Shown here in pieces: positions 1 through 13,973 of a DNA stretch of 64,000 nt; the stretch's first letter is position 1, and every line of letters begins with the position of its first letter. The DNA lies in contig OY970382.1 in NCBI GenBank assembly GCA_963719425.1, forward strand, positions 650,880 to 714,879, written 5' to 3'. The translations under genes and the position numbers were made by a program. This DNA comes from an uncultured bacterium. GTDB taxonomy: Bacteria; Patescibacteriota; Minisyncoccia; UBA6257; 2-01-FULL-56-20. Under the pieces are notes generated by a model. That model was not told where the DNA came from. It was given only the letters and a program-made list of their open reading frames with translations, and did no database searches.

Positions 1-441
1 TGGCGTATGCCGCGTTGGATGTTCTCGGCGAGATTGTCGGAATAATACTTGGACTGACCGAACGCCACTTGGAGCATGAATAACCCCTGCGGGGTAGGTT
101 CAAACCAAAAAGTCGGAAAGCGCAGGGAGACGACCTGCTTCTGATCCACGGCGTAGATGATGCGGCCGCCGTCTATGCTGTTTCTGGCCAGCCTGTCGGG
201 ATGCCACGCAAGGATGCCCACGCCGTCGCTCTTCTCAATGCGAGCCATCATCTCGCCAAACACTTCGCGGCCTGGCGTCTTCGCGCTTTTCGACTCTTGA
301 AATTCGGTGACGATTTCAAGCTTTTCTCTACGGGCATACTCGCGCAACTCGAACAACTGCGCCTCGATGCTCATCACTTGACGGTCGTCGTCCTCGCTGG
401 ACTTCCTAGCGTAGAGAAAATATTTTGGCTTGCCGTTCATC
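1..441 (-). CDS. Large serine recombinase, N-terminal catalytic (resolvase) domain; partial, continues past window start
   Basis: Minus-strand translation from ATG at 439-441 reads MNGKPKYFLYARKSSEDDDRQ…SIEAQ…GILAWHPDRLARN…, a resolvase-type catalytic Ser motif. Paralogous to the N-terminus of ORF 7541..8896. Not in ORF track because it is truncated at the window edge. Confidence 0.8.
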
Positions 442-577
442 GTTTTTATTTATATGATCGCCCTGTTTGAATTTTCCGAACCCAGCCAGTTTGCCGCGAA
501 GCGGCGCGAGATTTTGGCAGTTGCGTCCGCCGCGCGGACGCAGGGTAAATTTCTTTCTGATCGCGAAGTCTCTATTT

Positions 578-843
578 GCGGTGAAATTCTGGCCTTTGCT
601 CGAACCTATTTTGAGAGAATAGCATAGCAATCCACCCCTTCAAATACCCCTTCAATTGCCCCGCGCCAATTTGAAGGGGTAGCGGATCAAGATTGCCCCG
701 AAAAATCTGGGCTTTCCGACCATCGCCCGACAAAATCCAAAGTCCTACTTCACTCCGCTAGACCCCCTCCGAAATGGTGTGCTCAGCCCCTCGGCCTGCT
801 GGCCTCGGGGCTTCGCGTATGGCGCGCCCAAATTCCTCCCCCA
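578..843. repeat. Left copy of a perfect 266-bp inverted repeat (IR-L)
   Basis: Reverse complement of 2416..2683 matches 578..843 base-for-base (checked in blocks 601-637, 680-739, 740-800, 799-843). Contains an internal 11-bp hairpin CCCCTTCAAAT…ATTTGAAGGGG. Confidence 0.9.
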
Positions 844-909
844 CAAAAAACGCTCGAGGCCGCGTGGCCGAGGTCGATATTTTTTTATAAAGAGTTATAC
901 TGACAGTAA

Positions 910-1980
910 ATGCCTTTTATCAAATCATTGGGTGCGTTTGTTATCGGGCTATTTATCACCTTGAGCGGCGTTTTTGGTTTGCATAAAAATCTCCCGAGTA
1001 GTCCAATTGCGCCCCCTCCCGAACAAAATCAGATAAGTATCACAACCGCAAGCAATACGCCAACTCTGAAAAAGAATGTTAGTTCTAGTGATGATATAAA
1101 AGTAAAACCCCCCAGCATTATTTTAAGCCAACCTAAAATCGAACAGAACACAACGCCAGAAGCATCAGTTACAACCGACTCAGAATCTCAGAAAATATTA
1201 ATATCTGAAGTAGATACATTGCAGAGTTTCCTTAATTTCTATCAAACGTTTTTATTGGAAACACAGAAAGGGATACCACAAGCGTTAAGTTCGATTACCA
1301 CGGACTACAACTCAGCTACGGGCGCAATAACTGCTGAGTATAATATGAATAAAGATTCTTTGACCTCGCAATACAATATGGGTGAATCATATTTAGCAAG
1401 AGCTAAAGATAAAATTAGTCTGAGCCCCGGGATAATAAAAAGCGTCGAGGATAATTATGTGCTTGCTAAAAGCTCGTTTGAATCTTTATATCAAGACGAG
1501 TCGCAACAGCTCCAATCCTCTTATAGCCAATGCACAAATCAAGCGAGCAGTGTAGAAAAATCCAATACCGATAATTACCAATCCATGTCGAGTTACATAT
1601 CTTTAGAACTACCAATCATCAGTTCTCAGCTAAATTTATTGAATCAGTTTAGCAATAAACTTTCGTCGCCACTTTCCGTGTCGGATTTAGCAGAAATAAA
1701 TGCCTCTCTGAGTCAAAACTTTCCTGAATTACAAAATTCAAACTACTATGATTCTTCCGAGGGCGCAATCGTAGAAAGGCCGGAATATGCAAATGGATTT
1801 CCTGCAAACGCCATAGCACAATGCAATGACGGAACATATAGTTTCAGCGAAAATAGCAGCGGGACTTGCTCCTCGCATGGGGGCGTGAATAGTCTGCTAT
1901 ATACGCCACAAGTGAGCGATTGCGTTTCGGCTGCTGCCGATCTGCCATTGGATGATTTACAAAGCCAACTCGGTCTTTAG
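910..1980 (+). CDS. Hypothetical membrane-anchored Ser/Thr/Gln/Asn-rich protein (N-terminal TM helix)
   Basis: 356-aa ORF with N-terminal hydrophobic helix (GAFVIGLFITLSGVFGL). About 37% GC against ~55% background. A TATACT box lies 8 nt upstream of the ATG. Sits inside the IR-bounded cassette. Confidence 0.55.
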   Translation: MPFIKSLGAFVIGLFITLSGVFGLHKNLPSSPIAPPPEQNQISITTASNTPTLKKNVSSSDDIKVKPPSIILSQPKIEQNTTPEASVTTDSESQKILISEVDTLQSFLNFYQTFLLETQKGIPQALSSITTDYNSATGAITAEYNMNKDSLTSQYNMGESYLARAKDKISLSPGIIKSVEDNYVLAKSSFESLYQDESQQLQSSYSQCTNQASSVEKSNTDNYQSMSSYISLELPIISSQLNLLNQFSNKLSSPLSVSDLAEINASLSQNFPELQNSNYYDSSEGAIVERPEYANGFPANAIAQCNDGTYSFSENSSGTCSSHGGVNSLLYTPQVSDCVSAAADLPLDDLQSQLGL

Positions 1981-2016
1981 TTTAGCCACGAGAGAGGTTA
2001 TTTAAAAAAACAAATT

Positions 2017-2223
2017 ATGAAAAAATATATCCCAGCACCAATTGTAATTGTGTCGTTTGTCGGATTGCTTTTGGCATATCACTTTGCGCCTTGGTGGCTT
2101 TTTGAACTCATTATCGTTGCTTTCATAGGAATAATTTGGGGAGGGCTTTGGTTGCTTGGAGGATATGCCGAAAGAAAGAAAAAAGTAAATCCTAATCAAG
2201 AACAGGAGAAAACAGAAAAATAA
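2017..2223 (+). CDS. Small hypothetical membrane protein (2 TM)
   Basis: 68-aa ORF with two hydrophobic helices and a Lys/Glu-rich tail. AT-rich like the upstream gene. Inside the IR-bounded cassette. Confidence 0.4.
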   Translation: MKKYIPAPIVIVSFVGLLLAYHFAPWWLFELIIVAFIGIIWGGLWLLGGYAERKKKVNPNQEQEKTEK

Positions 2224-2415
2224 GATTAATTTATTAAATCAGATATTTCCAAGGGAGCTAGATCGCCTCTTGCCCGCGCAATGGGAGGGCTGGGGCAAGG
2301 GCAAGAACCGCTTTCTGAAGGGTCAGACACACAAAGACGTAGGATTTTCTCACTAGACAGGAATAGGGTCGCAAGACGCGGGACTACCACCTCTGAGCGC
2401 GCCTCAAAGGAGGGG

Positions 2416-2683
2416 TTGGGGGAGGAATTTGGGCGCGCCATACGCGAAGCCCCGAGGCCAGCAGGCCGAGGGGCTGAGCACACCATTTCGGAGGGGGTCT
2501 AGCGGAGTGAAGTAGGACTTTGGATTTTGTCGGGCGATGGTCGGAAAGCCCAGATTTTTCGGGGCAATCTTGATCCGCTACCCCTTCAAATTGGCGCGGG
2601 GCAATTGAAGGGGTATTTGAAGGGGTGGATTGCTATGCTATTCTCTCAAAATAGGTTCGAGCAAAGGCCAGAATTTCACCGCC
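2416..2683. repeat. Right copy of the perfect 266-bp inverted repeat (IR-R)
   Basis: Reverse complement identical to 578..843. Outer tip ends …GAATTTCACCGC|C. The 16-mer CACCGCCCGTTAGTGC (2677-2692) recurs at 11016-11031. Confidence 0.9.
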
Positions 2684-2843
2684 CGTTAGTGCAGCGGTTC
2701 GAGAGACCTCCCGGCCTCGGATTTTGCCATCTTTTTGAAACGCAGTTTAGGCGATGAAAGTCGGCGAGTGTCTAGGATTCGAACTTTGCATTTTGCGGAT
2801 CAACAAGTAGCCCCCCTGATTATAAAAAGCGGAATGGGTTGGG

Positions 2844-3506
2844 TTACAACTTAAAGAAGCTGAAAAGATTTGCGAAAAAGCTCATAACGGATCCAAAGAA
2901 CCCCTGGCTGACTGTCGCTGTTGAGGTTGAGACAGGCGTCGAACTTGGAGAATCATTGCGATAGCCCGGAAACGTGCCGCTTGCGAATGGCGGCGTACCG
3001 GAAGGTGTCCCTGTCGGGCGATTGTCGATGCGAAGCGTGCTCGAAGGTGTTCCCGTTGGGCGAGTGCCAATGCGAGGAGGCGTACCGCTTGTGTTGATTG
3101 GGCGGGTACTGGAACCCATTCCGCCTGGTCGTCCCGGATAATTACCACTACCGCCGAGACCATCCAGAATACTCGTTGCAATCACTGAATTACCGTTGAC
3201 CGTTCCTTGTACCATAACGGTGTCGCTGACAGCGATATTAGAGAGCGAAGATGCCGACCCATTTTTCGTCACGCTGGCATTTGAGGCATCAACCGTGTAG
3301 GTCGTACTGTTGCGACTATCTGTATCTGTAATGGTAATAGTTGTACCGTTAATTGCGGTTACCTGCCCGAAAACACCAGGGGGCTGACCCATTCCTCCGC
3401 CTCCGGGACCGCCAGCGGGCGGATACGACTCTGCAAGAACGGGTCCTGCGACAAGAACAAACGATGAAATTACGACTGCTGAAATTCCCCATAATCTCTT
3501 TTTCAT
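2844..3506 (-). CDS. Hypothetical secreted Gly/Pro/Thr/Ser-rich protein (signal peptide)
   Basis: 220-aa ORF with N-terminal signal-like sequence MKKRLWGISAVVISSFVLVAGPVLA and low-complexity G/P/T/S-rich regions. Confidence 0.55.
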   Translation of the reverse strand: MKKRLWGISAVVISSFVLVAGPVLAESYPPAGGPGGGGMGQPPGVFGQVTAINGTTITITDTDSRNSTTYTVDASNASVTKNGSASSLSNIAVSDTVMVQGTVNGNSVIATSILDGLGGSGNYPGRPGGMGSSTRPINTSGTPPRIGTRPTGTPSSTLRIDNRPTGTPSGTPPFASGTFPGYRNDSPSSTPVSTSTATVSQGFFGSVMSFFANLFSFFKL

Positions 3507-3592
3507 GACAGTGTTTTAATGTTTATACTCTATATACTGGCCGCTCGCAGAAAAAGTTTCATAATTCAATAAAGTTGCGAGAAGATCCACGC

Positions 3593-4816
3593 CTATTCGT
3601 ACCGTAAGGCCTCGATGGGATTCAAGCCAGCCGCCCGGCGTGCAGGGAAATAGCCGAAAACGATGCCGATCAGCATGGAAACTCCTACCGCAAGAAGCAC
3701 GGAATACATGGAGACGGTGGCGGTAAGAAGCCCGGTCAACGTGATAATATATGAAGCGCCGTATCCTATGACAACGCCGATGATGCCCCCGGTCATGGTG
3801 AGCGCAACTGCTTCAGTAAGAAACTGAATGCTGATGTCTCTTTTCTTCGCGCCGATTGCCTTGCGCAGACCGATCTCTTTCGTTCTCTCGGTAACGGTCG
3901 TAAGCATCATATTCATAATACCGATCCCTCCTACGATAAGGGATATCGATGCGATTGCCGCGAGGAGATAGGTAAGCGTGGTGGTGATGCTTGAAAGCGT
4001 CGAAGAAAGACTTGCCTGACTCTCAATGTTGAAATCTGCATTCGCCGAATCAGAAATACGGTGCCGCTTTAAAAGTAGCGCAGTGATACCATCTTGTACG
4101 GACTGTGAATCGCTGGAGGTGTCGGCCTCGACAGATATATCGCTCAGATATTGATTGCCCGTGATCATCTGTTGGGCGGTGGTGAGGGGAATATATGCGG
4201 CGTTATCCGGATTGTTAAATCCCGACCCCCCCTTCGCTTTAGTAATGCCAATGACAGTGAATTCAAGATTATCGATGCGAACAGTCTGGCCGATCGCTTC
4301 CGCGCCCGCGCCGAAGAGATCATCACGCGCCGTGGGGCCGAGAACCACAACCCGCGCATACCCTTGCAAGTTCTTATCTGAGATGAACGATCCCTCCTGC
4401 ATATCCACATTGTGCACGGTCGCGTATACCGTTTCGACGCCGTAGATCGAGGTATTGGTGTTTTTACTCGCCGCGACGATCTGCTGATTCGTGCTTACCT
4501 CGGGCGAAACATTCGCCACTCCGGAGACATGGTCTTGAATTGCGGTAGCATCGTCCCGGGTGAGGCTTTGCGCTGATCCACCGCTTCCCCGAACTTGGCT
4601 GCCGGGAGTCCTTGCCGCCCCCGCCGAAACGGTCAAGAGGTTCGAGCCCAGCCCTTGGATGTTCGACTGGATCGAACTGCTCGTGCCGTTGCCGACCGCA
4701 AGCATGATGATGACCGAAGCGATGCCGATCACAATGCCAAGCACGGTAAGTCCGGATCGTGACTTATTGCTGAGGAGCGCCGACGCGGTTTCCCGATATA
4801 GGTTGCGAATGGTCAT
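3593..4816 (-). CDS. ABC transporter permease (MacB/FtsX-like)
   Basis: 407 aa with N-terminal TM, large periplasmic domain and C-terminal FtsX-like 3-TM region. 4-bp overlap with upstream ATPase gene; operon with 4813..5529 and 5541..7220. Confidence 0.85.
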
Positions 4817-5529
4817 GCGGGAAGGTTTTTATCGAGATTTTTTTGATTTGGATTCTTCTTGTCTTCAAGAATGAGGCCATCCTTGATAAAAATGATCCGC
4901 TCCGCACAATTCGCCGTATCAGGATCATGGGTGATCAGAATCATCGTGACCTTGTGTTCCTTATTGAGGCGCTGAAAGGTGCCAAGAACGATCTCTCCCG
5001 TTTTTGAGTCAAGATTGCCCGTCGGCTCATCCGCCATAATGACCGAAGGATTATTAACAAGCGATCGAGCGATGGCCACGCGCTGGATCTGCCCTCCTGA
5101 AAGTTGGTTCGATTTATGTGTCCACCGATTTTCGGGAAGTCCTGCCGACTGAAGAGCGGCGGCGGCACGCGGTTCAAGTTCGGCCTCGGGCGCACCGGAA
5201 TATACCAGCGGCAAGGTTACATTGCGCATTACCGTAGTGCGCGGCAGCAAATTGAACGCCTGAAATACGAATCCGATCTTACTCGAACGTATGTCCGCAA
5301 GTTCATCATCGGAAAGCTTTGAAACGTCCTTGCCGTCAAGAAAATATTGTCCCGACGTTGGAGTATCGAGGCATCCCAAGATGTGCATAAGCGTGGACTT
5401 CCCCGATCCGGAGGGGCCGATAATGGCAACGAACTCCCCGTCTTTAATGGAAAACGAGACCCCTTTCAATGCTTGGGTTTCTTCTTCGCCGCTTCCATAG
5501 ACTTTTGTGAGATTTTTGCATTCAATCAT
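4813..5529 (-). CDS. ABC transporter ATP-binding protein (MacB/LolD-like)
   Basis: Walker [10 protein letters not shown], signature [15 protein letters not shown], Walker [12 protein letters not shown]. Confidence 0.9.
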
Positions 5530-5540
5530 GGGATATATAT

Positions 5541-7220
5541 TTAGGCACCGGGGCCGCCCAATAGCCCTCCCGATGATGTCTTGGTAGCGCCCGTAACGGT
5601 ATGCGTTACGATGAGTTCGCCCTCGGTGAGGCCGGAAGTGATAACGGTATTTAAGTTGTCGGAATCTCCCGTTTGCACCGTAACGGAATGCGGGGCGGTA
5701 GTTAATGAAATCGTCGCGCCGTCCTTCGCTCCGGCCACCCCGTCAAGCACCTGCACCGTTGAATTTGACCCCACGCTTAACACTGCTGAGTTAGGGACAA
5801 GGAGCACTCCAGTATCCTGTCCGATAGTTATTGTCGCCGAAACACTCATCCCCGGCTTCACTCCTTGGCCTGAGGCATCGAAAACAATTTTTGCATTATA
5901 ACTCACCACCCCTTGGGTAACCGTACCGATGGTATCGATCTGAGAGACTGTGCCCGTTGCCGTAACGCCGGGCAACGCATTGAAGGTAATGGTTGCTGTA
6001 TCGCCGAGCTTCACCTGCGCCGCATCGACTTCGTTCAACGAGATTTTTGCAATCTGCTCTTTGGTTATGACGGTGGCAATAACCGTATTGGTATTCACGA
6101 CATCGCCGACCGAAACGTTCACGGCGGCAACAACACCGCCAAACGGAGCTTTGATAAAGCTTTGATCGTAGGTGTTCTGAGCGGCTTGCAGTGCCGCCGT
6201 ATCGTTATCGAGCTGCGCCTTCGCCGTTGCGATGTCTTCGGGAAGAACCGGGGCAGTCGTTTGGTTATATGATGCCTGATTTTGTGCAAGCGACGAGGAG
6301 GCAGTTTGAACACTTTGCCCCGCCGCAAGCACGCTTGAAATGTCAGATGAAATGGTCGCCCGCGCCGAATCGACGGTGGTTATATAACTCGTCCCCGCAG
6401 AGGCGGGCACGATATAATTGGTGAGAACGCTCAGCATATCGTTAAGAAACTGGCTGGTCGAAGCGAGGTTGGTGTTGGTTGTCGCGAGCGCCGCAGCAAG
6501 ATCATTGACGTTGATATTCCCCGTGGAGGAGGCGGCCTTTGCAATTTGATCTTGCCATGTCGAAAACATATATTGAGCGCTCAGCCTCTCGTCGTTTATG
6601 TTGTTTTGAAGCTGGGTATTGGTCACGGTACCGCCCGGAACGGAAAATTGCGGATTAGCCGTCGTATTATTTGCATTGCCAAAAAATCCGTTCGTGTTGG
6701 TGAATACCACGGAAAATGTGTCGTTATAGGCACTCTGCAAACGGTTTATGAGTGTTTGTTCGGCATTTTGTAACGAGAGTTGAGCAGAGGCCACCTGCGC
6801 CTGACTCACTGCCACGCTTTGGCTGGTCGCCCCCGCCACCACTTTGTCATAATTTGCCTGTGCGCTTTCAACATTCGCTTTTGCCTGTGTGAGCTGTGTA
6901 AGAGCACTCGCATTACCAATGACCGCAATTTGTTCACCCGCAGTTACGGTGTTGCCTTGTTTTACATCCACCTCAGTAATCGTTGACGCGGACTGAGTCG
7001 TACCCTGCGGTTGGAGATCGACTTGGCTTTCGGCCTCCACTTGGCCAGTGCCATTCACGGTAATTGCAAGATTCCCCTTGGTCACTGTCCCGACCACATA
7101 TTGGGTCGGAGACCCCTTTCCTGCACTCACAATAAAGAATCCGCCAATTACAAGAACGACTACCACAGCAACAGATAGTATCTTGTGCGCTCCCACCCAC
7201 GCAAGAATCTTTTGTTTCAT
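5541..7220 (-). CDS. Efflux periplasmic adaptor subunit (HlyD/MacA family) with long coiled coil
   Basis: 559 aa with N-terminal TM anchor, long Ala/Gln-rich coiled-coil segments and a β-barrel-like C-terminal region. First gene of the three-gene export operon. Confidence 0.8.
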
Positions 7221-7233
7221 ATTGTTAGTTCTA

Positions 7234-7476
7234 TTACGGTCGCTCTTTTAAAATTCTGGCGATTTTCCCCAAATGTTCCGTGAAGGCTTTTGCTTTTACG
7301 ATGACAATGCCGTCATCAAAAGGAGTGCCTATGATAAGGAATCGTTCGCCCGATTTTATATGGAGTTTTTTCCGCGCTTCCGCCGGGATGACAACTTGCC
7401 CCTTCTCGTTGATCGTCGATGTCCCATAGATTTCCGACATGGGAGGTATAAAATTACCCTTTTTATTACTTTTCAT
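7234..7476 (-). CDS. AbrB/MazE/SpoVT-family DNA-binding protein (possible antitoxin/regulator)
   Basis: 80 aa. GQVVIPAEARKKLHIKSGERFLI matches the swapped-hairpin AbrB/MazE motif. Immediately downstream of the serine recombinase on the same strand. Confidence 0.6.
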   Translation of the reverse strand: MKSNKKGNFIPPMSEIYGTSTINEKGQVVIPAEARKKLHIKSGERFLIIGTPFDDGIVIVKAKAFTEHLGKIARILKERP

Positions 7477-7540
7477 ATACTTATTATACTACCTCTGGCG
7501 CTATTTTGTTTCAATTTGCAAAATAAGCGCCCAAAAATCA

Positions 7541-8896
7541 TTATAAAATGTCGCTCTTCTTTTCAATCACAAGCTGCTTATTCTTCAGCACCAGCCAGCT
7601 CTTGAGGTTCGTTAGCAACTCCCTTTTCTCCGTAATGCTACCCTCTTTGAGGAGGTATTTAGCATAGGTCTTGAAATCGATGTCGTTGGTTTCTTTCCTG
7701 ATTTTCTCCTCGATTTTGTCGGTACCAAACATCGCCCGCTTAAAGTGTTTATAGCGTTCAATCTCTTCTTCAAATTTCTTTTTGACGCCGAGCTCGTTCA
7801 TGTCGATCCGGTCCATGAGTTTCACGAGCTGTGCAATCAAATCCTCCTCGCGGATCGCACCGCCCTTGCAGTGCAGATCCCTCGATCGTGTGCAGGCGTA
7901 ATAGACGTAGCGATGCACGTTCCCATTTTTCTGCTTCTTGAATTTCTCATCGGCCGTAATGCCCGATCCACACTCGGCGCATTTGATGAGCTTTGTAAAA
8001 GCGAACTCTTTTGATTCCCGTTGGATATGATCTCGCTTTAGTTGTTCCTGTACCTTGTCGAATAAATCTCGCGAGATGAGCGGCTCATGCTTCCCATTGT
8101 ACCAGTTGCCACTTTTCTGCGGATACTCGAAGACGCCGTAATAAAAGGTATTTTGGAGAAGAACATAAATATTTCCGAGCGATAAATGGTGGTTGCTCTT
8201 AGTCCGGAAATTCAGCTCAAATTTCAACCAGTGGAAAAGCTTCCTCCCCGACCAGCGGTCGAAGGCCACCTTTTCGAACATCTTCTTGATAACGGGCGCG
8301 CGCTCGGGATCAATAATAACTTGGCATTTCCGCTCGGCGAGCCGTTGCGTGAGATAGCCCGTGGGTGGGGTTGTCGGCCATAAACCCATCTCGCATCGCG
8401 CCCGCTGCCCTCTCTTTATATTCACGCCTCGGTTGTCGTTCTCAAGCTTCGCCTGCGAGCACAGGATCATGAGGAGGAACTTCTCGTTTGGCGAGTTACT
8501 GAATCGCTGACCGTAAGTGCGGATCTCCATAAGGAGCTTCTGGTCCATGAGGTCCACGAGCGATCCAAGGTCGCCCGCGTTCCTTGAGAGCCGATCAGGT
8601 GCCCACGTGAGGATGCCGTTGAACTTGCCCATGCGAAGATCGTTGATCATCTCGTTGAAGATGGGTCGTTGTCCGGTCGCTTTCGCCGAATGGCTCTCGC
8701 GCTTCATCTCCACGATTTCAAGATTCTCGCGCTCGGCAATCTGGAGCATCTCCTTTATCTGCGAATCAATGGAAAGGATCTGACGCTCCTCCGATTCCGT
8801 GCTTTTCCTCGCGTAAAGGCAGTATTTGACCTTTATGGGAGCCTCCACTGCCGTCTGGGTCCCGACTCCCCGGGGATCCGTTGTTTTTGCTGTCAT
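7541..8896 (-). CDS. Large serine recombinase (resolvase domain + recombinase domain + zinc ribbon)
   Basis: 451 aa. N-terminal YARKSTESEERQ…SIDSQ catalytic Ser region, central recombinase domain, C-terminal CAECGSG…C zinc-ribbon and coiled coil. Confidence 0.9.
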   Translation of the reverse strand: MTAKTTDPRGVGTQTAVEAPIKVKYCLYARKSTESEERQILSIDSQIKEMLQIAERENLEIVEMKRESHSAKATGQRPIFNEMINDLRMGKFNGILTWAPDRLSRNAGDLGSLVDLMDQKLLMEIRTYGQRFSNSPNEKFLLMILCSQAKLENDNRGVNIKRGQRARCEMGLWPTTPPTGYLTQRLAERKCQVIIDPERAPVIKKMFEKVAFDRWSGRKLFHWLKFELNFRTKSNHHLSLGNIYVLLQNTFYYGVFEYPQKSGNWYNGKHEPLISRDLFDKVQEQLKRDHIQRESKEFAFTKLIKCAECGSGITADEKFKKQKNGNVHRYVYYACTRSRDLHCKGGAIREEDLIAQLVKLMDRIDMNELGVKKKFEEEIERYKHFKRAMFGTDKIEEKIRKETNDIDFKTYAKYLLKEGSITEKRELLTNLKSWLVLKNKQLVIEKKSDIL

Positions 8897-8948
8897 ACCA
8901 CAAGGGATGACGCAACGGTGGATGGAGTCCAGACCCCTCGGAAGGCCC

Positions 8949-8977
8949 TTGAAAAACCCCTAAAAATGTGGTATTCT
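8949..8977 (+). promoter_or_regulatory. Putative sigma70-like promoter for the 9047..10460 gene pair
   Basis: TTGAAA (8949-8954), 17-nt spacer, TATTCT (8972-8977), about 70 nt upstream of ATG 9047. Confidence 0.4.
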
Positions 8978-9046
8978 CATGGGAAATAAGCCCTCGAAAT
9001 TGAGAGAAAGGTCGATTGTGTAAAATCAGCTAACAACAATATTTTC

Positions 9047-9631
9047 ATGACCAAAGAAACATTCTCAAAAGAACTCAAAGAGATCCTCGAGCTTGTAAAA
9101 ATGTGCCCACAAAATCTCCAAGAAAAATGCTTCGAGATTCTTCTTAATGATGCGCTGACATCAATGAAGGGAGGGCGGCGCGCGGACACGGGAGCGAAGG
9201 GAGAAATACCTGACCGCGCCGACGTCGGGGCATCGGGCGTACCCCCCGAGATCAAAAAACGAATCAAGGTCTTCGCCGAACATCACCAGCTTTCCGATGT
9301 TGAGATTTATAAAGTGTTCGGCGTCGACGAAGCGGGAAATGTAAGCATCGAGGCTGCGGATTTGAAGTCTAAGAAAGTTGCGCAACAACAGCGGCGGCTA
9401 GCGTTGCTAATCGGTGTCAAGCATCAATTCGCAGAGAGCAGCTTTGATGTACCAAAGGATGAGTTGCGCGAAGCGTGCGTAACCTATGGAGCATACGACG
9501 CCGCAAACTTTGTGCAGAATCTCAAAAATATGAAAGAGATATTCGCCGGCTTCAAGCCAACCGCGACCAACAAATTATCTCCCTTGGGGAAGACACAAGC
9601 AGCGGCTCTCGTTAAGGAATTAGCTTTGTAA
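9047..9631 (+). CDS. Hypothetical protein (first gene of two-gene module)
   Basis: 194-aa ORF, no recognisable motifs. Stop lies 8 nt before the start of the next ORF, suggesting translational coupling. Confidence 0.55.
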   Translation: MTKETFSKELKEILELVKMCPQNLQEKCFEILLNDALTSMKGGRRADTGAKGEIPDRADVGASGVPPEIKKRIKVFAEHHQLSDVEIYKVFGVDEAGNVSIEAADLKSKKVAQQQRRLALLIGVKHQFAESSFDVPKDELREACVTYGAYDAANFVQNLKNMKEIFAGFKPTATNKLSPLGKTQAAALVKELAL

Positions 9632-9641
9632 ATTATGCCGC

Positions 9642-10460
9642 ATGGTAGAACAACTGGAACGCTTCCTGTCGTCCCTTGCGGAACTTCAAGAAGCCATCAA
9701 GAAAAATAAATCCGACTTTATTTCTCGCTCCGCTCTGCGAGGTAGCGTTGCAGATTGCGGGAAGTTTTGGCTTGGTAAGCTCTCGACCCAAATCCGTGGT
9801 GAGGGGTTGATTGACGATCAAATTCTTAACGCGATAGATGAAAAAATCGAAAAGTTGTTAGAGTTGACTTCGAATAACAACCGAAAAAACTCTTACCTCG
9901 GTTTGCTCAACGCGCTGCCGAAGGAAATCCAAAAGGGAGTCCTCGTCCCTATTATCAAGAAAACGAAAACGGCGCAAAATCCACTCGCCGCCTCGATCCT
10001 GTCGAAGATTTATTCCAGCCTCTCTTCTGACGAGGAGAGAAAATATTTTGAGGAGGCTGCTCGGGCGGCGGCCAGTGAGTGCTATAAGGCTGCAACAGTA
10101 ATGGTATGGTGCGCAGCAATTGATAGGCTTCGAAAGGTGGTTGAGAAGTTAGGTTTGAAAAATTTTAATAAAACCTCGAAACAGCTGAAGGCGCGGAAGA
10201 CCGGGTACTATAAACGTTTTTCTAAAGAATTTGATATATCACAGACCAACGAATTACCGGAGGTTTTTGATAAAGATTTGATCACGGTTCTTTCGGCAAT
10301 GGTAAATCTGGATTTGAACGAACTAGCAGCGATTATCCACCTCTTTGACGTACGCAACCACTGTGCCCATCCGTCTAGCTACGTCATGGACGAATTGGCC
10401 TATATCAACTACCTCAATGAGGTGTTGAAACTGGTGCTGTCCAATCCAAAATTTCTATAA
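9642..10460 (+). CDS. Hypothetical protein with C-terminal Rx4H HEPN-like motif (Abi/HEPN-like RNase candidate)
   Basis: 272 aa, mostly α-helical. The C-terminal …LFDVRNHCAHPSSY… fits the HEPN Rx4-6H motif, reminiscent of Abi2/AbiD-type HEPN domains (inference from the motif only). Confidence 0.55.
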   Translation: MVEQLERFLSSLAELQEAIKKNKSDFISRSALRGSVADCGKFWLGKLSTQIRGEGLIDDQILNAIDEKIEKLLELTSNNNRKNSYLGLLNALPKEIQKGVLVPIIKKTKTAQNPLAASILSKIYSSLSSDEERKYFEEAARAAASECYKAATVMVWCAAIDRLRKVVEKLGLKNFNKTSKQLKARKTGYYKRFSKEFDISQTNELPEVFDKDLITVLSAMVNLDLNELAAIIHLFDVRNHCAHPSSYVMDELAYINYLNEVLKLVLSNPKFL

Positions 10461-10479
10461 ATTTTCTGCTCTCGGGCAG

Positions 10480-10920
10480 GATCAAATGAGACATCGCCCC
10501 GAGACACGCAAAAAGTGTCTCATTTGTCTCATTTGATCAAAAAAAGTCTTATTTTACGGGCTTCGGTTTTTCGAAATGAGACACTGGTTTGTCCCACTGG
10601 AACACCCAGTTTTGTGTCTCATTTTGTCCCATTTCGGACACGTCCGGAATGCCGTTTTGGTGTCCGATTTGTCCGATTTGGCACACCGGGATGGCACACG
10701 AAAAAGTGCCTATGCTGTGTGCCATTTGTGCCATTTTCTCCCAAAATGTTACATGCCCCGGCAGTGTAACATTTGTAACATTTTGGGCGTTGCGCTTGGG
10801 ATGTTGCATTCCGGATCCCTTGAAAACACACATATTTTCGGTCTTGGCTGGCCACCCCACCGCAGAGGTGTCATTTCCCAAATGTTACACATCGTGTTGC
10901 ATTTGGTGCATGTTGCATTT
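10480..10920. repeat. Degenerate dyad/direct-repeat array of GT-NNN-CATTTG words with stepwise-varying cores
   Basis: Tandem pairs gtctcatttg×2, gtcccatttcg, gtccgatttg×2, gtgccatttg×2, gtaacatttg×2, gttgcatttg/gtgcatgttgcattt, each preceded by a matching inverted half-site (gagacac…gtgtctc, ggacacgtcc, ggcacac…gtgcc, tgttaca…tgtaaca). Region is open in 5 of 6 frames; the translated products look non-proteinaceous. Confidence 0.8.
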
Positions 10921-11100
10921 ACCCTAAATCCAAGAGCGACCTCCCGGCTTCAAAAACCGCTTTTCCAAGAAAGCCCTGAAAGGCTCATCAAAAAGAGGTT
11001 CCCGACCGAGGATCACCGCCCGTTAGTGCGTAAGTTTGAGGGGCCGCTTTGCCTAGTTTAACGCATTTCCACCCTGAGCTATAATTAGGGCATCAATAAT

Positions 11101-11274
11101 ATGAAGTTCAATATTTCTTCAAAATATTTTATCCCAATAGGAATCGCGCTCTATATTATTTTTCTTATCATAGGAGGCGTTATCGGCAGCGCAATTGGAA
11201 CAGTCGGATTTATCTTGTTTCTGTTGGGCCTCTTTGACATACTGCGTTCATGGTTTAAGAAGGGCAAGTCATAA
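11101..11274 (+). CDS. Small hypothetical 2-TM peptide (57 aa; below ORF-track cutoff)
   Basis: ATG at 11101 preceded by TATAAT (11079-11084). Product MKFNISSKYFIPIGIALYIIFLIIGGVIGSAIGTVGFILFLLGLFDILRSWFKKGKS has two hydrophobic helices. Confidence 0.35.
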   Translation: MKFNISSKYFIPIGIALYIIFLIIGGVIGSAIGTVGFILFLLGLFDILRSWFKKGKS

Positions 11275-11409
11275 TATGAATAAAGGAGGTGATTTGAATT
11301 GCGATAAATGCGGAAGAACAATAAAATCAAAACCGAACTAATCCTTTATTGGCTATTTCAGTATTTGAAGTTCGTGTAAATAATCGAAATCTTACTTATA
11401 TCGTAGACA

Positions 11410-11868
11410 ATGATAGATAAAAATCCAAAAGGACTTTTTAGGGAGGATTTGAAAAGCGCCAAAGTTATAAGCGTGGGGAATAAATTTGGTATTGAGGCGG
11501 AATACATTGGTGGCGAAAAAGAATTACTCCACGATTCGTTTAATTCTTCCGATGAAGCTCAAAAGGAGATTGACGAGACTCTAAAATGGGTCGGTAGAAT
11601 TTCCCTATCAGATTCAATTAAGGCGACGGACGAGGTATTTGTTAAGATTGTTGACAACATTAAATGGGAGGCGAATGACCTCGCGCTCATTGGTATCTTA
11701 TTCACATTGATGGTTGGGCTGATTCCCCTGGTCAACCTTCTAGTTAAAAATTTATTCGCAGCCTGTATAATTGCTGTTATTAGCACAACAATCCTAATGG
11801 TGATAATTGCGAAGATAAAGATTGTTAAACGCCCTATAATCATATTCTTTAGATGGCTTTTGAAATAG
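11410..11868 (+). CDS. Hypothetical protein with soluble N-domain and two C-terminal TM helices
   Basis: 152 aa. C-terminal LALIGILFTLMVGLIPLVNLLV and IIAVISTTILMVIIAKI hydrophobic segments. AT-rich. Confidence 0.5.
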   Translation: MIDKNPKGLFREDLKSAKVISVGNKFGIEAEYIGGEKELLHDSFNSSDEAQKEIDETLKWVGRISLSDSIKATDEVFVKIVDNIKWEANDLALIGILFTLMVGLIPLVNLLVKNLFAACIIAVISTTILMVIIAKIKIVKRPIIIFFRWLLK

Positions 11869-11920
11869 AATCATAAAGTCGAGTATGTTCTCGTTATTCT
11901 ACTGACGGATCCGGGTTTTG

Positions 11921-12010
11921 GGGAAATAGACCCCGACCGACCCGCCTCAAATGACCGATTTCCAAGAACGTTGCGATGGATTGCCAGGATTTGGTTCTAG
12001 ACCTCTTCAC
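11921..12010. repeat. Direct repeat A (~95 nt), upstream flank of the nucleotidyltransferase gene
   Basis: About 80% identical to 12881..12975. Conserved core …CCGAC(C/T)CGCCTCAAA(T/C)G(A/G)CCGATTT(C/T)CAAGAA(C/T)GTTG…GGATTTGGTTC…CACCGC. Confidence 0.7.
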
Positions 12011-12038
12011 ACCGCCAGTTGGGAAAAACACAAATATT

Positions 12039-12830
12039 ATGAGTGAAAATTTAGATCATATACTAGAACACAAAAGATTCGCTCCAACCCCGGAATCGCT
12101 TAGCGCCATGAAAAATATCCGAGACATGCTTGAGGGCATACAAAAAAATATTCCCGGAATCCGCGGGATAGGTTTTATGGGGTCGCGAACAAAAGGCCAG
12201 GAAAAAGCAGATTCAGATTTAGATATTGTTGTTTTTTACGACTGGAATATAGTATTTAACACCAAGAAATATATAAACAAAGAAGTTATTCGAGATTCAT
12301 TTCCAGTAGATATCCCCCTCGATGTGGAGCATTATGGTGCTTTACATTTGGTAGAGATAGGTAAAGGGTCATTAGATTCTGAAATTTCTGACCTTGTTGC
12401 CACAGCCAATGAGATTGCTGAAGGAGAAAATATTCCAGTGGAACAAATTCCCACATTACCTTTCCGGTCACCTTTGAGCAATTTATTTATGCTTGCGGTT
12501 GGTGACCAGGTTTATAAAGCGAGGAGATATGTGCTTGAACAATTACAGTCCAAACCTTACGGAGAAAAATACCTTCAACTTTTAATGAAGCAACTCTCTA
12601 AAGACGAACGCGAAGGAACCAGGAAACGAATAAGCCCGCAATATCCGAATTACCCTAAAACTTTTGAAGACGCAGAAAAGTTTTTTATTACCGAACCCTA
12701 CGATCTTGAAGAATTAAACGCGCCACTTATATCGCCGGCCAAAGAAGAGCCAAGGCGTTTAGGAGAAACTATTACAGCAGCGATTAACAAATTCTATTTG
12801 AACCTTAAATCGAAGAAGGGACGTGAGTAA
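12039..12830 (+). CDS. Nucleotidyltransferase-domain protein (pol-β/minimal-NTase fold with C-terminal helical domain)
   Basis: GIGFMGSRTKGQEKADSDLDIVVFYD (GS…DxD) plus a third acidic residue at DIPLDVEH about 30 aa later. Start placed at ATG 12039 because the upstream part of ORF 11976 overlaps repeat A. Gene is about 27-30% GC. Confidence 0.7.
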   Translation: MSENLDHILEHKRFAPTPESLSAMKNIRDMLEGIQKNIPGIRGIGFMGSRTKGQEKADSDLDIVVFYDWNIVFNTKKYINKEVIRDSFPVDIPLDVEHYGALHLVEIGKGSLDSEISDLVATANEIAEGENIPVEQIPTLPFRSPLSNLFMLAVGDQVYKARRYVLEQLQSKPYGEKYLQLLMKQLSKDEREGTRKRISPQYPNYPKTFEDAEKFFITEPYDLEELNAPLISPAKEEPRRLGETITAAINKFYLNLKSKKGRE

Positions 12831-12880
12831 TGATCTGAGTTTGTGTAAAAAATTGGGTGCCATCTATATCGTTATAACGG

Positions 12881-12975
12881 AAAATTGAACCCTACCGACT
12901 CGCCTCAAACGGCCGATTTTCAAGAATGTTGTAACGGCTTGCTGGGATTTGGTTCCCGACCGAGGAACACCGCAG
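12881..12975. repeat. Direct repeat B (~95 nt), downstream flank of the nucleotidyltransferase gene
   Basis: Aligns with 11921..12010. Ends GGTTCCCGACCGAGGAACACCGC, sharing GGTTCCCGACCGAGGA(T/A)CACCGC with 10999..11021. Confidence 0.7.
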
Positions 12976-13184
12976 ATTTGGTTGAAGATTATTTTCCACC
13001 GCGAGCGGCCACGCTTCGCGTGGCATGAAATCTAGCTTTCCCTCGCCGAGCCGGGAGTTCGGGGCTGCCTAGCATCCATAGGTTCTCGCCCTCAGGTTTT
13101 AGCATCGCAAAAAATTTAGGGATAAATCGGAGAGGATCGCCGATCCGGAAAAAATGACGAAAAAAAGGTTATAATCTGATATAT

Positions 13185-13973
13185 ATGATCGAAGTAAGTA
13201 ATTTGACCAAAAAATATGGTGATCTTACGGCAGTAAATAACGTGAGCTTCACCGTGAACGACGGAGAGGTGTTCGCGTTCCTCGGTCCCAACGGCGCGGG
13301 TAAAACTACGACCGTGAAGATGCTCACGACGCTGCTTCATCCCACTGCGGGGGTTATGAGGCTTAATAATATTGATCCCGTACGCGAACCGGAGCAGGCG
13401 CGCCGAACATTCGGGATTGTGTTTCAGGATCCAAGCTTGGATGACGACCTGACCGCCTGGGAAAATATGGATTTGCACGGGGTGCTCTATGACGTGCCGG
13501 ATGAGGCGCGACGGAAAGGGTGCGAGGAACTCCTGAAGTTCGTTGATCTCTGGGATCGCAAAGATAGCGTAGTCAAAGAATTTTCCGGAGGAATGAAGCG
13601 TCGGCTTGAAATCGCCCGGGGACTCTTGCACGAACCCAAGATCCTCTTCCTTGATGAGCCGACGACAGGCCTCGACCCTCAAACGCGGAACCTCATGTGG
13701 GACCGCCTGCAGGATCTCAATAAGACCAAGGGAATGACGATCTTTCTCACAACCCATTACATGGAGGAAGCCGACAGGATGGCGAATCGCATCGCCATAA
13801 TGGATGAAGGCAAGATCATCGCCACCGGGACTCCGGACGAACTGAAGAAGCAAACGAATACCGAGTTCCTTGAGGATGCGTTCCTCGCGCTCACGGGCAA
13901 GACCATTCGCGACGAAGGGGCCAGTTCCACCGACCACGCGAGAACCATAGGCCGCCGGATGGGAAGAAGATAA
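13185..13973 (+). CDS. ABC transporter ATP-binding protein (ABC-2/DrrA-like)
   Basis: Walker A GPNGAGKTT, signature FSGGMKRRLEIARGLL, Walker B ILFLDEPTTGLD. TATAAT at about 13171. Confidence 0.9.
   Translation: MIEVSNLTKKYGDLTAVNNVSFTVNDGEVFAFLGPNGAGKTTTVKMLTTLLHPTAGVMRLNNIDPVREPEQARRTFGIVFQDPSLDDDLTAWENMDLHGVLYDVPDEARRKGCEELLKFVDLWDRKDSVVKEFSGGMKRRLEIARGLLHEPKILFLDEPTTGLDPQTRNLMWDRLQDLNKTKGMTIFLTTHYMEEADRMANRIAIMDEGKIIATGTPDELKKQTNTEFLEDAFLALTGKTIRDEGASSTDHARTIGRRMGRR

What the first reader, a model, noticed from the sequence alone, without database searches (positions are those of the whole stretch)
440..2700. AT-rich 1.57-kb two-gene cassette bounded by perfect 266-bp inverted repeats next to a serine-recombinase promoter region
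Positions 578-843 and 2416-2683 are exact reverse complements over 266 bp, far longer than classic invertase sites or IS terminal repeats. They enclose a ~37% GC segment in a ~55% GC background. The segment encodes a 356-aa membrane-anchored S/T/Q/N-rich protein and a 68-aa 2-TM peptide and has its own A/T-rich upstream region with a TATACT box. The left repeat starts about 135 bp from the start codon of the window-edge large serine recombinase, and the intervening spacer carries a CGTCCGC-CGCG-CGGACG palindrome. Perfect identity over 266 bp implies recent duplication or ongoing homogenisation by recombination. Three readings fit: a recombinase-driven invertible (phase-variable) surface-protein cassette, a non-autonomous mobile insertion cassette with long terminal inverted repeats, or a foldback structure. 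Flipping would also re-orient the cassette relative to the recombinase promoter.
Basis: seen in the sequence. Interest (0 to 1): 0.8.

Follow-up and report, generated by a model that had tools for sequence, protein, structure and literature searches.

The report
Integrase mini-island with duplicated attachment site
The two perfect 266-base mirror repeats are two copies of the docking region of a small mobile DNA island that a large serine integrase inserts at the end of a tRNA gene in tiny Saccharibacteria-type genomes. The AT-rich genes between them are the island's swappable cargo, not a proven on/off switch.

Summary
Arms 578-843 and 2417-2682 are 100% complementary, and no other copy is in the window.

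The cassette is only part of a larger unit. At least 11 related loci in Saccharibacteria and other CPR genomes share one architecture:

tRNA | a' - large serine recombinase - a.b - cargo - b' | flank

- The right arm (b') is the P arm of attR, so the element ends at 2682.
- The left arm (b), together with spacer 441-577 (a), is an intact second attP in inverted orientation.
- Junction sequences show textbook attL/attP/attR relations with a 5-6-bp core at the tRNA 3' end.
- A GTTCG motif lies 18 nt from the core in the tRNA and 22-24 nt from it in the P arm, the known offset between attB and attP.

Cargo differs completely between close relatives and is often defence genes. Arm pairs are near-identical within an element but only 81-96% alike between elements, which indicates concerted evolution.

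Module orientation is mostly fixed. Exceptions (C2, L029, L028) show flips or alternative integration over evolutionary time. Nothing shows rapid phase variation.

Why attP is duplicated is inferred, not shown. This is a new variant of serine-integrase islands, and no description was found in the searched literature.

The parts
1..440 (-). 5' part (146 codons) of the large serine recombinase gene. The rest of the gene, the outer a' arm and the left junction lie beyond the window edge.
   Evidence: PF00239 Resolvase domain, E = 1.4e-21. The 146 aa are identical to the N-terminus of P0123 (516 aa, on an 887,956-nt contig) and 96.6% identical to the L010 recombinase. The L010 recombinase has Resolvase + Recombinase + Zn_ribbon_recom domains.
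441..577 (.). Arm 'a', central copy. It is the P' side of the internal attP and an inverted duplicate of the 3' coding end of the recombinase gene. It contains the GCGTCCGC-CGC-GCGGACGC palindrome.
   Evidence: ORF 430..627 encodes ALFEFSEPSQFAAKRREILAVASAARTQGKFLSDREVSICG, identical to the C-terminus of P0123, the window's own recombinase. In L010 the homologous 130 nt form a 100% inverted repeat around the recombinase gene (3509-3638 / 5039-5168).
574..583 (.). Internal crossover core J, at the a|b boundary 577/578. The core reads GCGG on the + strand, CCGC on the other.
   Evidence: The reverse complement of the central site (...GAATTTCACCGC|AAATAGAGAC) matches attR (...GAATTTCACCGC|ccgttagtg) up to this point. 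In L010 and four further elements, attL, the central site and attR share a 5-6-bp core here.
578..843 (+). Arm 'b', central copy (the left repeat). The first ~56 nt are the P arm of the internal attP and include AAAATAGGTTCGAGC. The remainder is a highly conserved module with hairpins.
   Evidence: 100% inverted repeat with 2417-2682. It is 81-96% identical to arms in 20+ loci. Two hairpins are supported by compensatory changes.
844..871 (.). 'Hairpin A': a conserved GGCC-GCGT-GGCC hairpin followed by a T-run, at the inner edge of the central arm.
   Evidence: Conserved in L004, L010, C1b, C3, L009 and L016 at the same position. Homology with L010 ends at 871.
872..2251 (+). Variable AT-rich cargo. 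It holds a promoter-like site (874-901), ORF 910-1980 (356 aa: N-terminal membrane anchor, S/T/N/Q-rich region, C-terminal DUF3761) and ORF 2017-2223 (68 aa, two predicted TM segments).
   Evidence: GC is 39.5% over the ORFs. DUF3761 E = 1.1e-16. No PADLOC or PHROG hit for the 356-aa protein; only a weak PHROG 'membrane protein' match (E = 0.004) for the 68-aa one. L010 has unrelated cargo at this position even though its recombinase is 96.6% identical. Logan contig L001 is identical to 821-2289.
2252..2416 (+). 'extB': a conserved non-coding extension joined to the outer arm, with a -10-like box at its left edge on the G-rich strand.
   Evidence: 84-91% identical in L003, L009, L014, L016, L020, L022, L024 and L025. 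Frame-breaking indels rule out coding.
2417..2682 (-). Arm b', outer copy (the right repeat). This is the P arm of attR, and the element ends at 2682.
   Evidence: Repeat identity stops exactly at the CCGC core. Homologous to L010 7133-7401, where it abuts the flank in the same way.
2683..2787 (+). B' half of the chromosomal attachment site (the sequence normally downstream of the tRNA), containing GTTCGAG.
   Evidence: 88% identical to the L010 attR flank. Paralogous copies lie at 41807-41915, 43893-44001 and 48353-48461. The last directly follows tRNA-Ser(GGA) at 48458-48545.

Best explanation
Window 1-2682 is the right-hand two thirds of a small (about 4 kb) integrative element. The element is mobilised by a large serine recombinase (LSR) and inserted at the 3' end of a tRNA-type site in a Saccharibacteria-like (CPR) genome. 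Its conserved layout is:

tRNA | a' - rec - a.b - cargo - b' | flank

**Shown**
1. The right 266-bp arm is the P arm of attR. The element ends at 2682, at a CCGC core shared with the target.
2. The left arm plus spacer 441-577 is an intact second copy of the attP region, inverted, lying between the recombinase and the cargo.
3. attP lies inside the 3' end of the recombinase ORF. Integration through that copy therefore replaces the last ~14 codons with tRNA-antisense sequence.
4. The AT-rich two-gene segment is replaceable cargo. Sister elements carry restriction-modification, GmrSD, MORC-like or arsenic-related genes instead.
5. The two copies of each arm evolve in concert.

**Inferred**
- The LSR recombines attP with the tRNA 3' end. 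It uses the universal T-loop GTTCGA as the binding motif for its zinc-ribbon domain (ZD) in attB.
- A free circle would carry two inverted attP regions that separate a recombinase module from a cargo module, much as the repeats of the yeast 2-micron plasmid do.
- The duplicated, highly conserved b arms act mainly as homology arms for RecA-type gene conversion, occasional module flipping, cargo replacement in either orientation, and tandem accretion of elements.
- The duplication also allows integration through either attP copy, giving two integrated forms that differ in the recombinase C-terminus and in its orientation to the tRNA.
- The arm hairpins are probably regulatory: a terminator, an operator, or a structured leader RNA for the recombinase.
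For: **Recurring architecture**
- A 20-mer from the arm finds 21 loci in small CPR genome assemblies.
- Adjacent 8-kb tiles were joined on the basis of ORFs of 439-661 aa spanning the tile junctions.
- Self-BLAST then shows two near-perfect inverted-repeat pairs per element:
  - L010: a 130 nt at 100%, b 269 nt at 98.9%.
  - C1b: 93 nt at 98.9% and 266 nt at 99.6%.
  - C2: 159 nt and 386 nt, both 100%.
  - C3: 141 nt at 92.9% and 266 nt at 100%.
  - C4: 124 nt at 99.2% and 267 nt at 100%.
  - L009, L030 and L032 show the same pattern.

**Link to the recombinase and the tRNA**
- A recombinase homologue lies beside the arms in 11 loci.
- The outer a' arm overlaps the 3' end of a tRNA gene by 4-6 nt. 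The tRNAs are Ser-GGA, Pro-GGG, Asn, Ala-CGC and Ser-GCT.

**Attachment-site logic**
- attL, the reverse complement of the central site, and attR share only a 5-6-bp core. In L010 this is ...gtcgcctCCGCAG|ATAGAG...TTTCACCGCAG|ATAGAG and ...TTTCACCGCAG|ggttgtg.
- GTTCG starts 18 nt before the core in all six tRNA B arms and 22-24 nt before it in the P arms. This matches the published 4-5-bp shift between attB and attP (PMC11722253).
- The enzyme has the LSR domain set.

**The window's own a arm is duplicated**
- The C-terminus of P0123 equals window ORF 430..627 up to ...SICG.

**The recombinase ORF reads through J**
- It runs on into tRNA antisense in L010, C2, C3 and L006.
- About 65 of 120 non-redundant homologues end in GIRT-type tails of this kind.

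**Cargo and concerted evolution**
- Cargo is unrelated between the window and L010 despite a 96.6% identical recombinase. Homology breaks at 871 and 2397.
- Sister cargo matches Pfam defence or resistance families and is AT-rich.
- Arms differ by 4-19% between elements but by ~0-1% within most elements.

**Alternative forms**
- L028 has the recombinase co-directional behind tRNA-Ser, with arms only 84-87% alike, so its assembly is unambiguous.
- C2 and L029 have the cargo flipped.
- L031 is a three-element tandem array whose inter-element junctions are intact a'.b' sites.
Against: - The left end of the window's own element (a' and the tRNA) is off the window. It is inferred from L010 and from P0123, whose tail DHRSGTSF is not the usual tRNA-antisense type.
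- No empty site from a close relative was recovered. The only stand-ins are a 74% similar paralogous tRNA-Ser plus flank and two stubs in the same window.
- No read-level data exist, so excision, circles and flipping rates are unobserved.
- Canonical LSRs do not recombine attP with attP, so the enzyme itself may never act on the internal copy.
- The functional reason for the duplication is inference. Homology arms, twin integration routes and regulatory hairpins are not distinguished by the data.
- Many 'native-tail' proteins and contig L027 come from short-read assemblies. There a perfect repeat can cause mis-joins, so they cannot count as evidence for free circles.
- Two of the recombinase genes in long-read genomes are frameshifted (C1b, C4). 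This may be pseudogenisation or sequencing error.
Confidence: 0.78

Rival explanations
1. Recombinase-driven invertible switch. The adjacent serine recombinase flips segment 844-2416 between the two arms at appreciable frequency, so that the surface protein is expressed in a phase-variable way.
For: - Perfect inverted repeats lie next to a serine recombinase gene.
- Concerted evolution of the arms implies that they recombine with each other.
- The cargo module is in the opposite orientation in C2 and L029.
- Precedent: the phage P1 C segment has 0.6-kb inverted repeats next to cin (own knowledge).
Against: - The enzyme is a large serine integrase with the full Recombinase + Zn-ribbon architecture, not a small invertase.
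- The arms are att arms whose crossover core lies at their OUTER end. A core-to-core reaction would be attP with attR, which LSRs do not perform.
- attP-attP synapses appear non-productive.
- Both arms are identical, and no outside promoter or split gene would be rewired. The right flank is the 3' end of a convergent gene.
- Seven of 8 single elements have the window's orientation. That is unlike a population near flip equilibrium.
Confidence: 0.1
2. Non-autonomous cassette or composite transposon. The unit 578-2682, bounded by long terminal inverted repeats, moves as a whole, mobilised in trans.
For: - Long terminal repeats bound foreign-looking AT-rich DNA.
- The arm sequence is dispersed, with several copies per genome in relatives.
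Against: - There is no target-site duplication.
- In every resolvable locus one arm abuts an a arm plus recombinase, and the other abuts a flank of the type found downstream of a tRNA.
- The arm's outer end shares the att core with the tRNA 3' end, which is the geometry of site-specific integration, not of transposition.
- Single-copy hits (L003, L004) lie on short contigs that end near the arm.
Confidence: 0.03
3. The repeat exists because the conserved b module is needed on both sides of the cargo. It may be a structured RNA gene, or a protein-binding promoter or terminator unit. The att function would be incidental to the repeat.
For: - b (positions 57-266) is 88-91% identical between elements whose recombinases are only 47% identical.
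- Two hairpins keep 97.5% pairing, with 21 compensatory cells. None of 500 shuffles reached the observed score, and slid controls pair at 27-49%.
- G.U pairs and tandem G.A pairs favour the G-rich strand, which is the recombinase's strand in the central copy.
- A three-copy motif (CCCCTTCAA twice plus TTGAAGGGG) changes in concert to CCCCATCA- and CCCCTACG-type variants.
- ~130-nt modules are tandemly duplicated in L003, L021, L022 and C5.
- A -10-like box lies upstream of extB.
Against: - No Rfam family matches at E <= 1.
- Only two helices show covariation, and the middle of the arm gave no consensus structure.
- Compensatory changes in palindromes fit DNA-binding sites equally well.
- This reading does not explain why the a arm, which is coding sequence, is duplicated too, or why arm identity ends exactly at the att core.
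- No transcription data are available.
Confidence: 0.2
4. Assembly artefact (foldback or chimeric join) in a metagenome-assembled genome.
For: - Perfect inverted repeats are a known assembler artefact.
- Short-read contigs break at these arms (L001, L026 and L027).
Against: - The same architecture, with different sequences and cargo, occurs in 11 or more loci from independent samples. These include complete chromosomes of 0.83-0.90 Mb and a 3-element array.
- The arms are only 266 nt, which long reads span easily.
- An independent Logan contig covers the left arm-cargo junction.
Confidence: 0.02

Closest known systems
Large serine integrase elements (phiC31, Bxb1, A118, SPbeta; TnpX/Tn4451)
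   Same: - The three-domain recombinase is the same.
- Short-core attP x attB recombination gives attL and attR with no long direct repeats.
- The ZD motif lies 4-6 bp closer to the core in attB than in attP.
- attP is adjacent to the integrase gene.
   Different: - This element carries a second, intact, inverted copy of a 360-560-bp attP region, so each module is bracketed by perfect inverted repeats.
- The target is the 3' end of tRNA genes, with the T-loop acting as half-site motif.
- The element is only 3-6 kb and has no phage or conjugation genes.
- No recombination directionality factor was identified.
Myxophage Mx8 intP/attP (own knowledge)
   Same: attP lies inside the 3' end of the integrase ORF, so integration changes the enzyme's C-terminus.
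   Different: - Mx8 Int is a tyrosine recombinase.
- Mx8 has no duplicated inverted attP.
Tycheposons of Prochlorococcus (bioRxiv 10.1101/2020.12.28.424599)
   Same: - Both are small tRNA-targeted integrative elements that carry variable niche or defence cargo in streamlined genomes.
- A minority of tycheposons use large serine recombinases.
   Different: - Tycheposons mostly use tyrosine integrases, with partial tRNA repeats.
- They often carry replication genes.
- No twin inverted att regions are described for them.
Yeast 2-micron plasmid and plastid inverted repeats (own knowledge)
   Same: - Two long identical inverted repeats divide the (inferred) circle into two unique segments.
- The repeats evolve in concert.
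- Isomers differ by the relative orientation of the segments.
   Different: - In 2-micron, the FLP tyrosine recombinase acts on the repeats for copy-number amplification.
- Here the repeats contain an integrase attP. The element is found integrated, and no replication function is known.
Phage Mu G / P1 C invertible segments (Gin, Cin)
   Same: - A serine recombinase gene lies just outside a segment bounded by inverted repeats. In P1 the repeats are 0.6 kb.
   Different: - Those systems use small invertases with an enhancer, and their crossover sites switch alternative tail-fibre gene ends.
- Here the enzyme is an integrase, the crossover core is the att core, and no gene is rewired.

Membership tests
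Large serine recombinase integrative element | Recombinase with Resolvase catalytic domain + Recombinase domain + zinc-ribbon domain | tested here: met
   The window fragment matches PF00239. The full-length homologue in L010 (96.6% identical over the window's 146 aa) has PF00239 + PF07508 + PF13408. P0123, the window's own protein (516 aa), is in the same 90% cluster.
Large serine recombinase integrative element | attL, attR and attP related by exchange at a short common core, without long direct repeats | tested here: met
   Junction triplets for L010, C1b, C2, C3, C4 and L009 share 5-6 bp cores. For the window, the internal attP and attR share ...TTTCACCGC and diverge exactly at 577/578 and 2682/2683.
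Large serine recombinase integrative element | B-type half-site has the ZD (zinc-ribbon domain) motif ~4-5 bp closer to the centre than the P-type half-site | tested here: met
   GTTCG starts 18 nt from the core in six tRNA B arms and 22-24 nt from it in the six P arms. The rule is taken from PMC11722253.
Large serine recombinase integrative element | Unoccupied attB in related genomes, or an excised circle | tested here: inconclusive
   Only a paralogous tRNA-Ser(GGA) plus a 74% similar flank in the same window. L027 looks like a circle but may be an assembly mis-join.
Small-invertase phase-variation switch (Hin/Gin/Cin type, invertons) | Small serine invertase (~190 aa, C-terminal HTH) or dedicated tyrosine invertase | tested here: not met
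   The enzyme is a 516-549-aa LSR.
Small-invertase phase-variation switch (Hin/Gin/Cin type, invertons) | Both orientations coexist within one population | not testable with these tools
   No reads are available. Across assemblies, 7 of 8 single elements share the window's cargo orientation. C2 and L029 are flipped.
Small-invertase phase-variation switch (Hin/Gin/Cin type, invertons) | Inversion rewires a promoter or alternative gene ends | tested here: not met
   The arms are identical, and no ORF crosses the outer arm boundary at 2682. The neighbouring gene 2844-3506 is convergent. The a arm, however, could swap the recombinase C-terminus if the recombinase module flipped.
Transposon or MITE with long terminal inverted repeats | Target-site duplication flanking the repeats | tested here: not met
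   The flanks are ...gaagtctctattt|GCGG and CCGC|ccgttagtg, with no direct repeat.
Transposon or MITE with long terminal inverted repeats | The repeat-bounded unit is found at varied sites independently of the recombinase | tested here: not met
   All resolvable copies are linked to a recombinase and a tRNA 3' end.
Known structured RNA families (Rfam 15) | Match to a curated covariance model | tested here: not met
   No hit at E <= 1 in window 1-4000 on either strand.

The most novel reading that the evidence does not exclude
The conserved b/extB module (about 210-430 nt) may be a new structured nucleic-acid component of these integrase elements. It has compensatory hairpins, a three-copy motif that changes in concert, and tandemly duplicated ~130-nt units. 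It is far more conserved than the recombinase.

Two readings remain open:
- It is an RNA made from the recombinase's strand that controls, or takes part in, recombination.
- It is DNA arms that let a single strand taken up by natural competence fold back into a duplex attP, as in CTXphi or integron attC, but for a serine integrase.

Either reading would make the twin-attP layout a mechanistic requirement rather than a by-product.
Probability: 0.15. Interest if true: 0.85.

Novelty: new variant of a known kind. Interest (0 to 1): 0.62.

Why it matters
- **Scale.** Homologues of this recombinase number in the thousands across CPR/Patescibacteria (4907 hits at E <= 1e-20). If the twin-attP layout holds across them, this is a major route by which these tiny genomes acquire and shuffle defence and surface genes. 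No description of it was found.
- **Defined sites.** The analysis gives exact attP, attB, attL and attR sequences for several natural integrases that read the universal tRNA T-loop. That is useful for genetic tools in Saccharibacteria and for integrase engineering.
- **Annotation.** It explains why very many database 'recombinase' proteins end in odd GIRT-type tails: the ORF reads on into tRNA antisense.
- **Open question.** It asks why an integrase element would keep a spare, inverted, perfectly homogenised attP. This can be tested.

Tried and rejected
- **Rfam** on 1-4000 at E <= 1 found nothing.
- **A 28-mer from the arm** against genome representatives and viral contigs gave 0 hits. A 20-mer from the inner end of the arm then worked.
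- **A viral-contig scan** with the window's recombinase found no relative, so no phage link.
- **PADLOC and PHROGs** gave no function for the window cargo.
- **Fetching the DNA left of the window failed.** The 220-aa neighbour and P0123 are not on record as exact gene products. The 356-aa and 407-aa look-ups returned only short Logan contigs.
- **L027** (3923 nt: cargo, 399-nt arm, recombinase, 399-nt arm) first looked like the free circle. I rejected it as evidence because its arm ends at the contig end and is a perfect repeat. That is what a collapsed assembly-graph path would give. For the same reason the ratio of native to tRNA-antisense tails (about 15 to 65 of 120) is not a reliable isomer frequency.
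- **Logan contig L026** stops 3 nt inside the outer arm. I considered this a sign of an empty site in that sample. The predicted attB branch point, from P0123's tail, would be 7 nt inside, so the stop remains unexplained.
- **Coding potential of the arm** (ORF 2527-2757) and of extB (ORF 2281-2502) is rejected because of frame-breaking indels and stop codons in homologues.
- **Origin of the layout** by simple inversion, or by tandem integration of a one-attP element, could not be derived on paper.
- **A pathway through a single-stranded dumbbell** gives the right structure but needs several unsupported steps. It is kept only as the novel case.
- **RNAalifold** found no consensus pairing in the middle third of the arm.

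Full report
**1. The observation**

The inverted repeat is real. Arms 578-843 and 2417-2682 are 266 nt long and 100% complementary, with 1573 nt between them. No other copy is in the 64-kb window.

The enclosed segment is AT-rich, though less so than stated. Its ORFs are 39.5% GC, the arms 55.6% and the window 51.7%.

The ORFs and small features described are present:
- A 356-aa protein with a C-terminal DUF3761 domain, and a 68-aa two-TM peptide.
- A TATACT box at 896-901.
- A serine recombinase N-terminus starting at 440 on the minus strand.
- The palindrome at 523-541.

**2. The arm is a dispersed, conserved element linked to recombinases and tRNA genes**

A 28-mer from the arm hit three metagenome contigs carrying 80-87% similar single copies. 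A 20-mer from the inner end of the arm hit 21 stretches in small CPR or Saccharibacteria-type genome assemblies, several per genome.

The stretches proved to be consecutive 8-kb tiles, because ORFs of 439-661 aa run across the tile joins. After joining them, self-BLAST shows the same layout again and again:
- One inverted pair 'b' (266-403 nt) flanks a 1.6-3.7-kb AT-rich cargo.
- A second inverted pair 'a' (93-163 nt) flanks the recombinase gene.
- The inner a and b copies abut each other.

tblastn finds a recombinase homologue beside the arms in 11 loci. ARAGORN finds a tRNA gene whose 3' end overlaps the outer a' arm by 4-6 nt. The tRNAs are Ser-GGA, Pro-GGG, Asn and Ala-CGC.

Three further relatives were fetched through the protein database. 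L030 and L032 have the same structure at tRNA-Ser(GCT). L031 is a tandem array of three such elements at one tRNA.

The layout is therefore:

tRNA | a' - rec - a.b - cargo - b' | flank

**3. Attachment-site logic**

For six elements I aligned three junctions: tRNA|a', the reverse complement of the central a|b site, and b'|flank. They have the classic attL/attP/attR relation with a 5-6-bp shared core, for example CCGCAG in L010.

In the window, the internal site (...GAATTTCACCGC|AAATAGAG) and the right junction (...GAATTTCACCGC|ccgttagtg) diverge exactly at 577/578 and 2682/2683. So the right arm is the P arm of attR, and the left arm belongs to an intact internal attP in inverted orientation.

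The motif GTTCG begins 18 nt before the core in every tRNA, where it is the T-loop. It begins 22-24 nt before the core in every P arm. This offset is the hallmark distinguishing attB from attP half-sites of large serine integrases (PMC11722253).

The enzyme has the complete LSR domain set.

**4. The recombinase gene runs through attP**

In L010, C2, C3 and L006 the ORF has no stop before the junction. It continues into the antisense of the tRNA.

The window's own recombinase is in the protein collection as P0123 (516 aa, from an 887,956-nt contig). Its N-terminal 146 aa equal the window's translation. Its C-terminus...ALFEFSEPSQFAAKRREILAVASAARTQGKFLSDREVSICG, is identical to window ORF 430..627, which lies in the central a arm. 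This shows that the a pair exists in the window's genome too.

In the central copy the same frame ends 14 codons past the core (EILAFARTYFERIA*).

Among 120 non-redundant homologues, about 65 end in tRNA-antisense tails (GIRTH/GIRTL type) and about 15 end in this 'native' tail. Within one 90%-identity cluster, the same C-terminus is followed by at least eight different tails. That argues for recent joining to many flanks.

One caveat applies. In short-read assemblies a perfect a repeat collapses, so native tails and the circle-like contig L027 may be mis-joins.

**5. Cargo and concerted evolution**

L010's recombinase is 96.6% identical to the window's over the 146 aa visible, and its arms are 96% identical. 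Its cargo is unrelated, with homology breaking at 871 and 2397.

Sister cargo includes GmrSD, a MORC-like ATPase-protease, an MvaI/BcnI restriction-modification pair, and an ArsR/ArsP set. All of it is AT-rich relative to its surroundings. The window's cargo has no match to known defence families.

Arm pairs are ~99-100% identical within most elements but 81-96% identical between elements. Window and L010 arms differ at 10 of 266 positions, and those differences are shared by both copies. The copies are therefore being homogenised.

Positions 57-266 of b are 88-91% identical even between elements whose recombinases share only 47% of residues.

**6. Orientation**

The recombinase is convergent with the tRNA ('isomer 1') in the window's relatives L010, C1b, C2, C3, C4, L009 and L006, and in L030 and L032.

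Hairpin A lies next to the central arm and extB next to the outer arm in WIN, L010, C1b, C3, L009 and L016. C4 has extB at the outer arm but a different hairpin at the central one.

There are exceptions:
- C2 has the cargo module flipped.
- L029 has a recombinase at least 90% identical to the window's, with cargo flipped, and is fused to a second truncated recombinase.
- L028 has the recombinase co-directional directly behind tRNA-Ser(CGA), with the native tail. Its arms are only 84-87% alike, so the assembly is unambiguous.

So flips, or integration through the other attP copy, do occur. The pattern is not that of a fast switch.

**7. Structure in the arm**

On the G-rich strand, two hairpins keep 97.5% pairing across 16 copies, with 21 compensatory cells. 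None of 500 shuffles reached the observed score, and slid controls paired at 27-49%. G.U pairs and tandem G.A pairs favour this strand, which is the recombinase's strand in the central copy.

A three-copy motif (CCCCTTCAA twice plus its complement) changes in concert to CCCCATCA- and CCCCTACG-type variants. Units of ~130 nt are tandemly duplicated in some loci.

Neither arm nor extB is coding, and nothing matches Rfam. The function of this structure is unknown.

**8. Interpretation**

*Shown:*
- The element's identity, boundaries and att logic.
- Variable cargo.
- Concerted evolution of the arms.
- The existence of alternative orientations.

*Inferred:*
- The free form is a circle with two inverted attP regions.
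- The conserved arms serve as homology arms for gene conversion, orientation-free cargo replacement and tandem accretion. The intact a'.b' inter-element junctions in L031 are what a single homologous crossover through b would give.
- The two attP copies give two integrated states that differ in the recombinase C-terminus and in its orientation to the tRNA.

Current knowledge suggests that LSRs synapse two attP sites but do not recombine them. Flipping is therefore more likely RecA-mediated.

**9. Novelty**

Searches of the held literature found no description of serine-integrase elements with a duplicated inverted attP, or of these CPR tRNA islets. The nearest concepts are:
- Ordinary LSR elements.
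- Mx8, whose attP lies inside int.
- Tycheposons.
- Flip-flop repeats of the 2-micron and plastid type.

I class the finding as a new variant of a known kind.

Noticed in passing
window 12967-13061: Solo 'a' arm of a second element type...ggaacaCCGCAG|ATTTGGTTGAAGATTATTTTCCACCGCGAGCGGCCACGC. It is 98.6% identical to the a arm of L009 and 83% to that of C1b. It is joined at a CCGCAG core to a tRNA-3'-like stub, and no recombinase lies beside it. It is probably the remnant attL of a lost element.
   Followed up: partly
window 41807-41915, 43893-44001, 48353-48461 (and 2683-2787): Four copies of a ~109-nt sequence (74-88% to L010's flank). At 48.4 kb this sequence directly follows tRNA-Ser(GGA) 48458-48545. 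The 41.9- and 44.0-kb copies follow a short tRNA-3'-like stub (GGTGTCGGTTCGCTCCCGC). Large accessory genes lie between them: DUF3160, a PGA_cap/Memo fusion, and a 657-aa protein. These may be reiterated attB-like sites or the boundaries of older islands.
   Followed up: partly
L031 (GCA_037139975.1) 870-14400: Tandem array of three recombinase-plus-cargo elements at one tRNA-Ser(GCT). Every module is bracketed by inverted a or b arms. The two inter-element junctions are identical and are intact a'.b' sites (191 nt, 100%).
   Followed up: partly
L029 7101-8299: The b arm is truncated at ...tatggcgcg and fused to the 3' two thirds of a second, different large serine recombinase. That gene ends at its own a arm, at the contig end. 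This is a deletion fusing two adjacent elements.
   Followed up: partly
L026 4805 = window 2680: An independent short-read (Logan) contig covering the chromosomal flank stops 3 nt inside the outer arm. A plain repeat break would be expected about 30 nt inside. No simple alternative junction explains the position.
   Followed up: partly
window 632-685 and 2575-2628; L003, L017/L024, L023/L025: The motif CCCCTTCAA occurs twice in direct and once in inverted orientation. All three copies change together in other elements, to CCCCATCA(T/C) and CCCCTACG(T) types. This suggests either alternative pairings or three binding sites for a co-varying factor.
   Followed up: partly
protein database (P0001-P0120): Thousands of CPR 'recombinase family' proteins vary in length (465-693 aa among the top 120). 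Their ORFs read through the att core into whatever flanks it. Most end in GIRT(H/L)-type peptides, which are the antisense translation of the tRNA T-arm.
   Followed up: yes
C5 = L023+L025: A rearranged locus at tRNA-Asn. It has three b copies (two direct, one inverted), a contiguous b'.a'-recombinase junction, a 57-nt direct repeat of the a' start, and an IS3-like transposase next to the recombinase.
   Followed up: partly
window 3593-7220: The element's right-hand neighbours look like ordinary chromosome: a DUF5666 secreted protein, and a MacB-type ABC exporter operon (FtsX/MacB_PCD permease, ABC ATPase, periplasmic adaptor).
   Followed up: no
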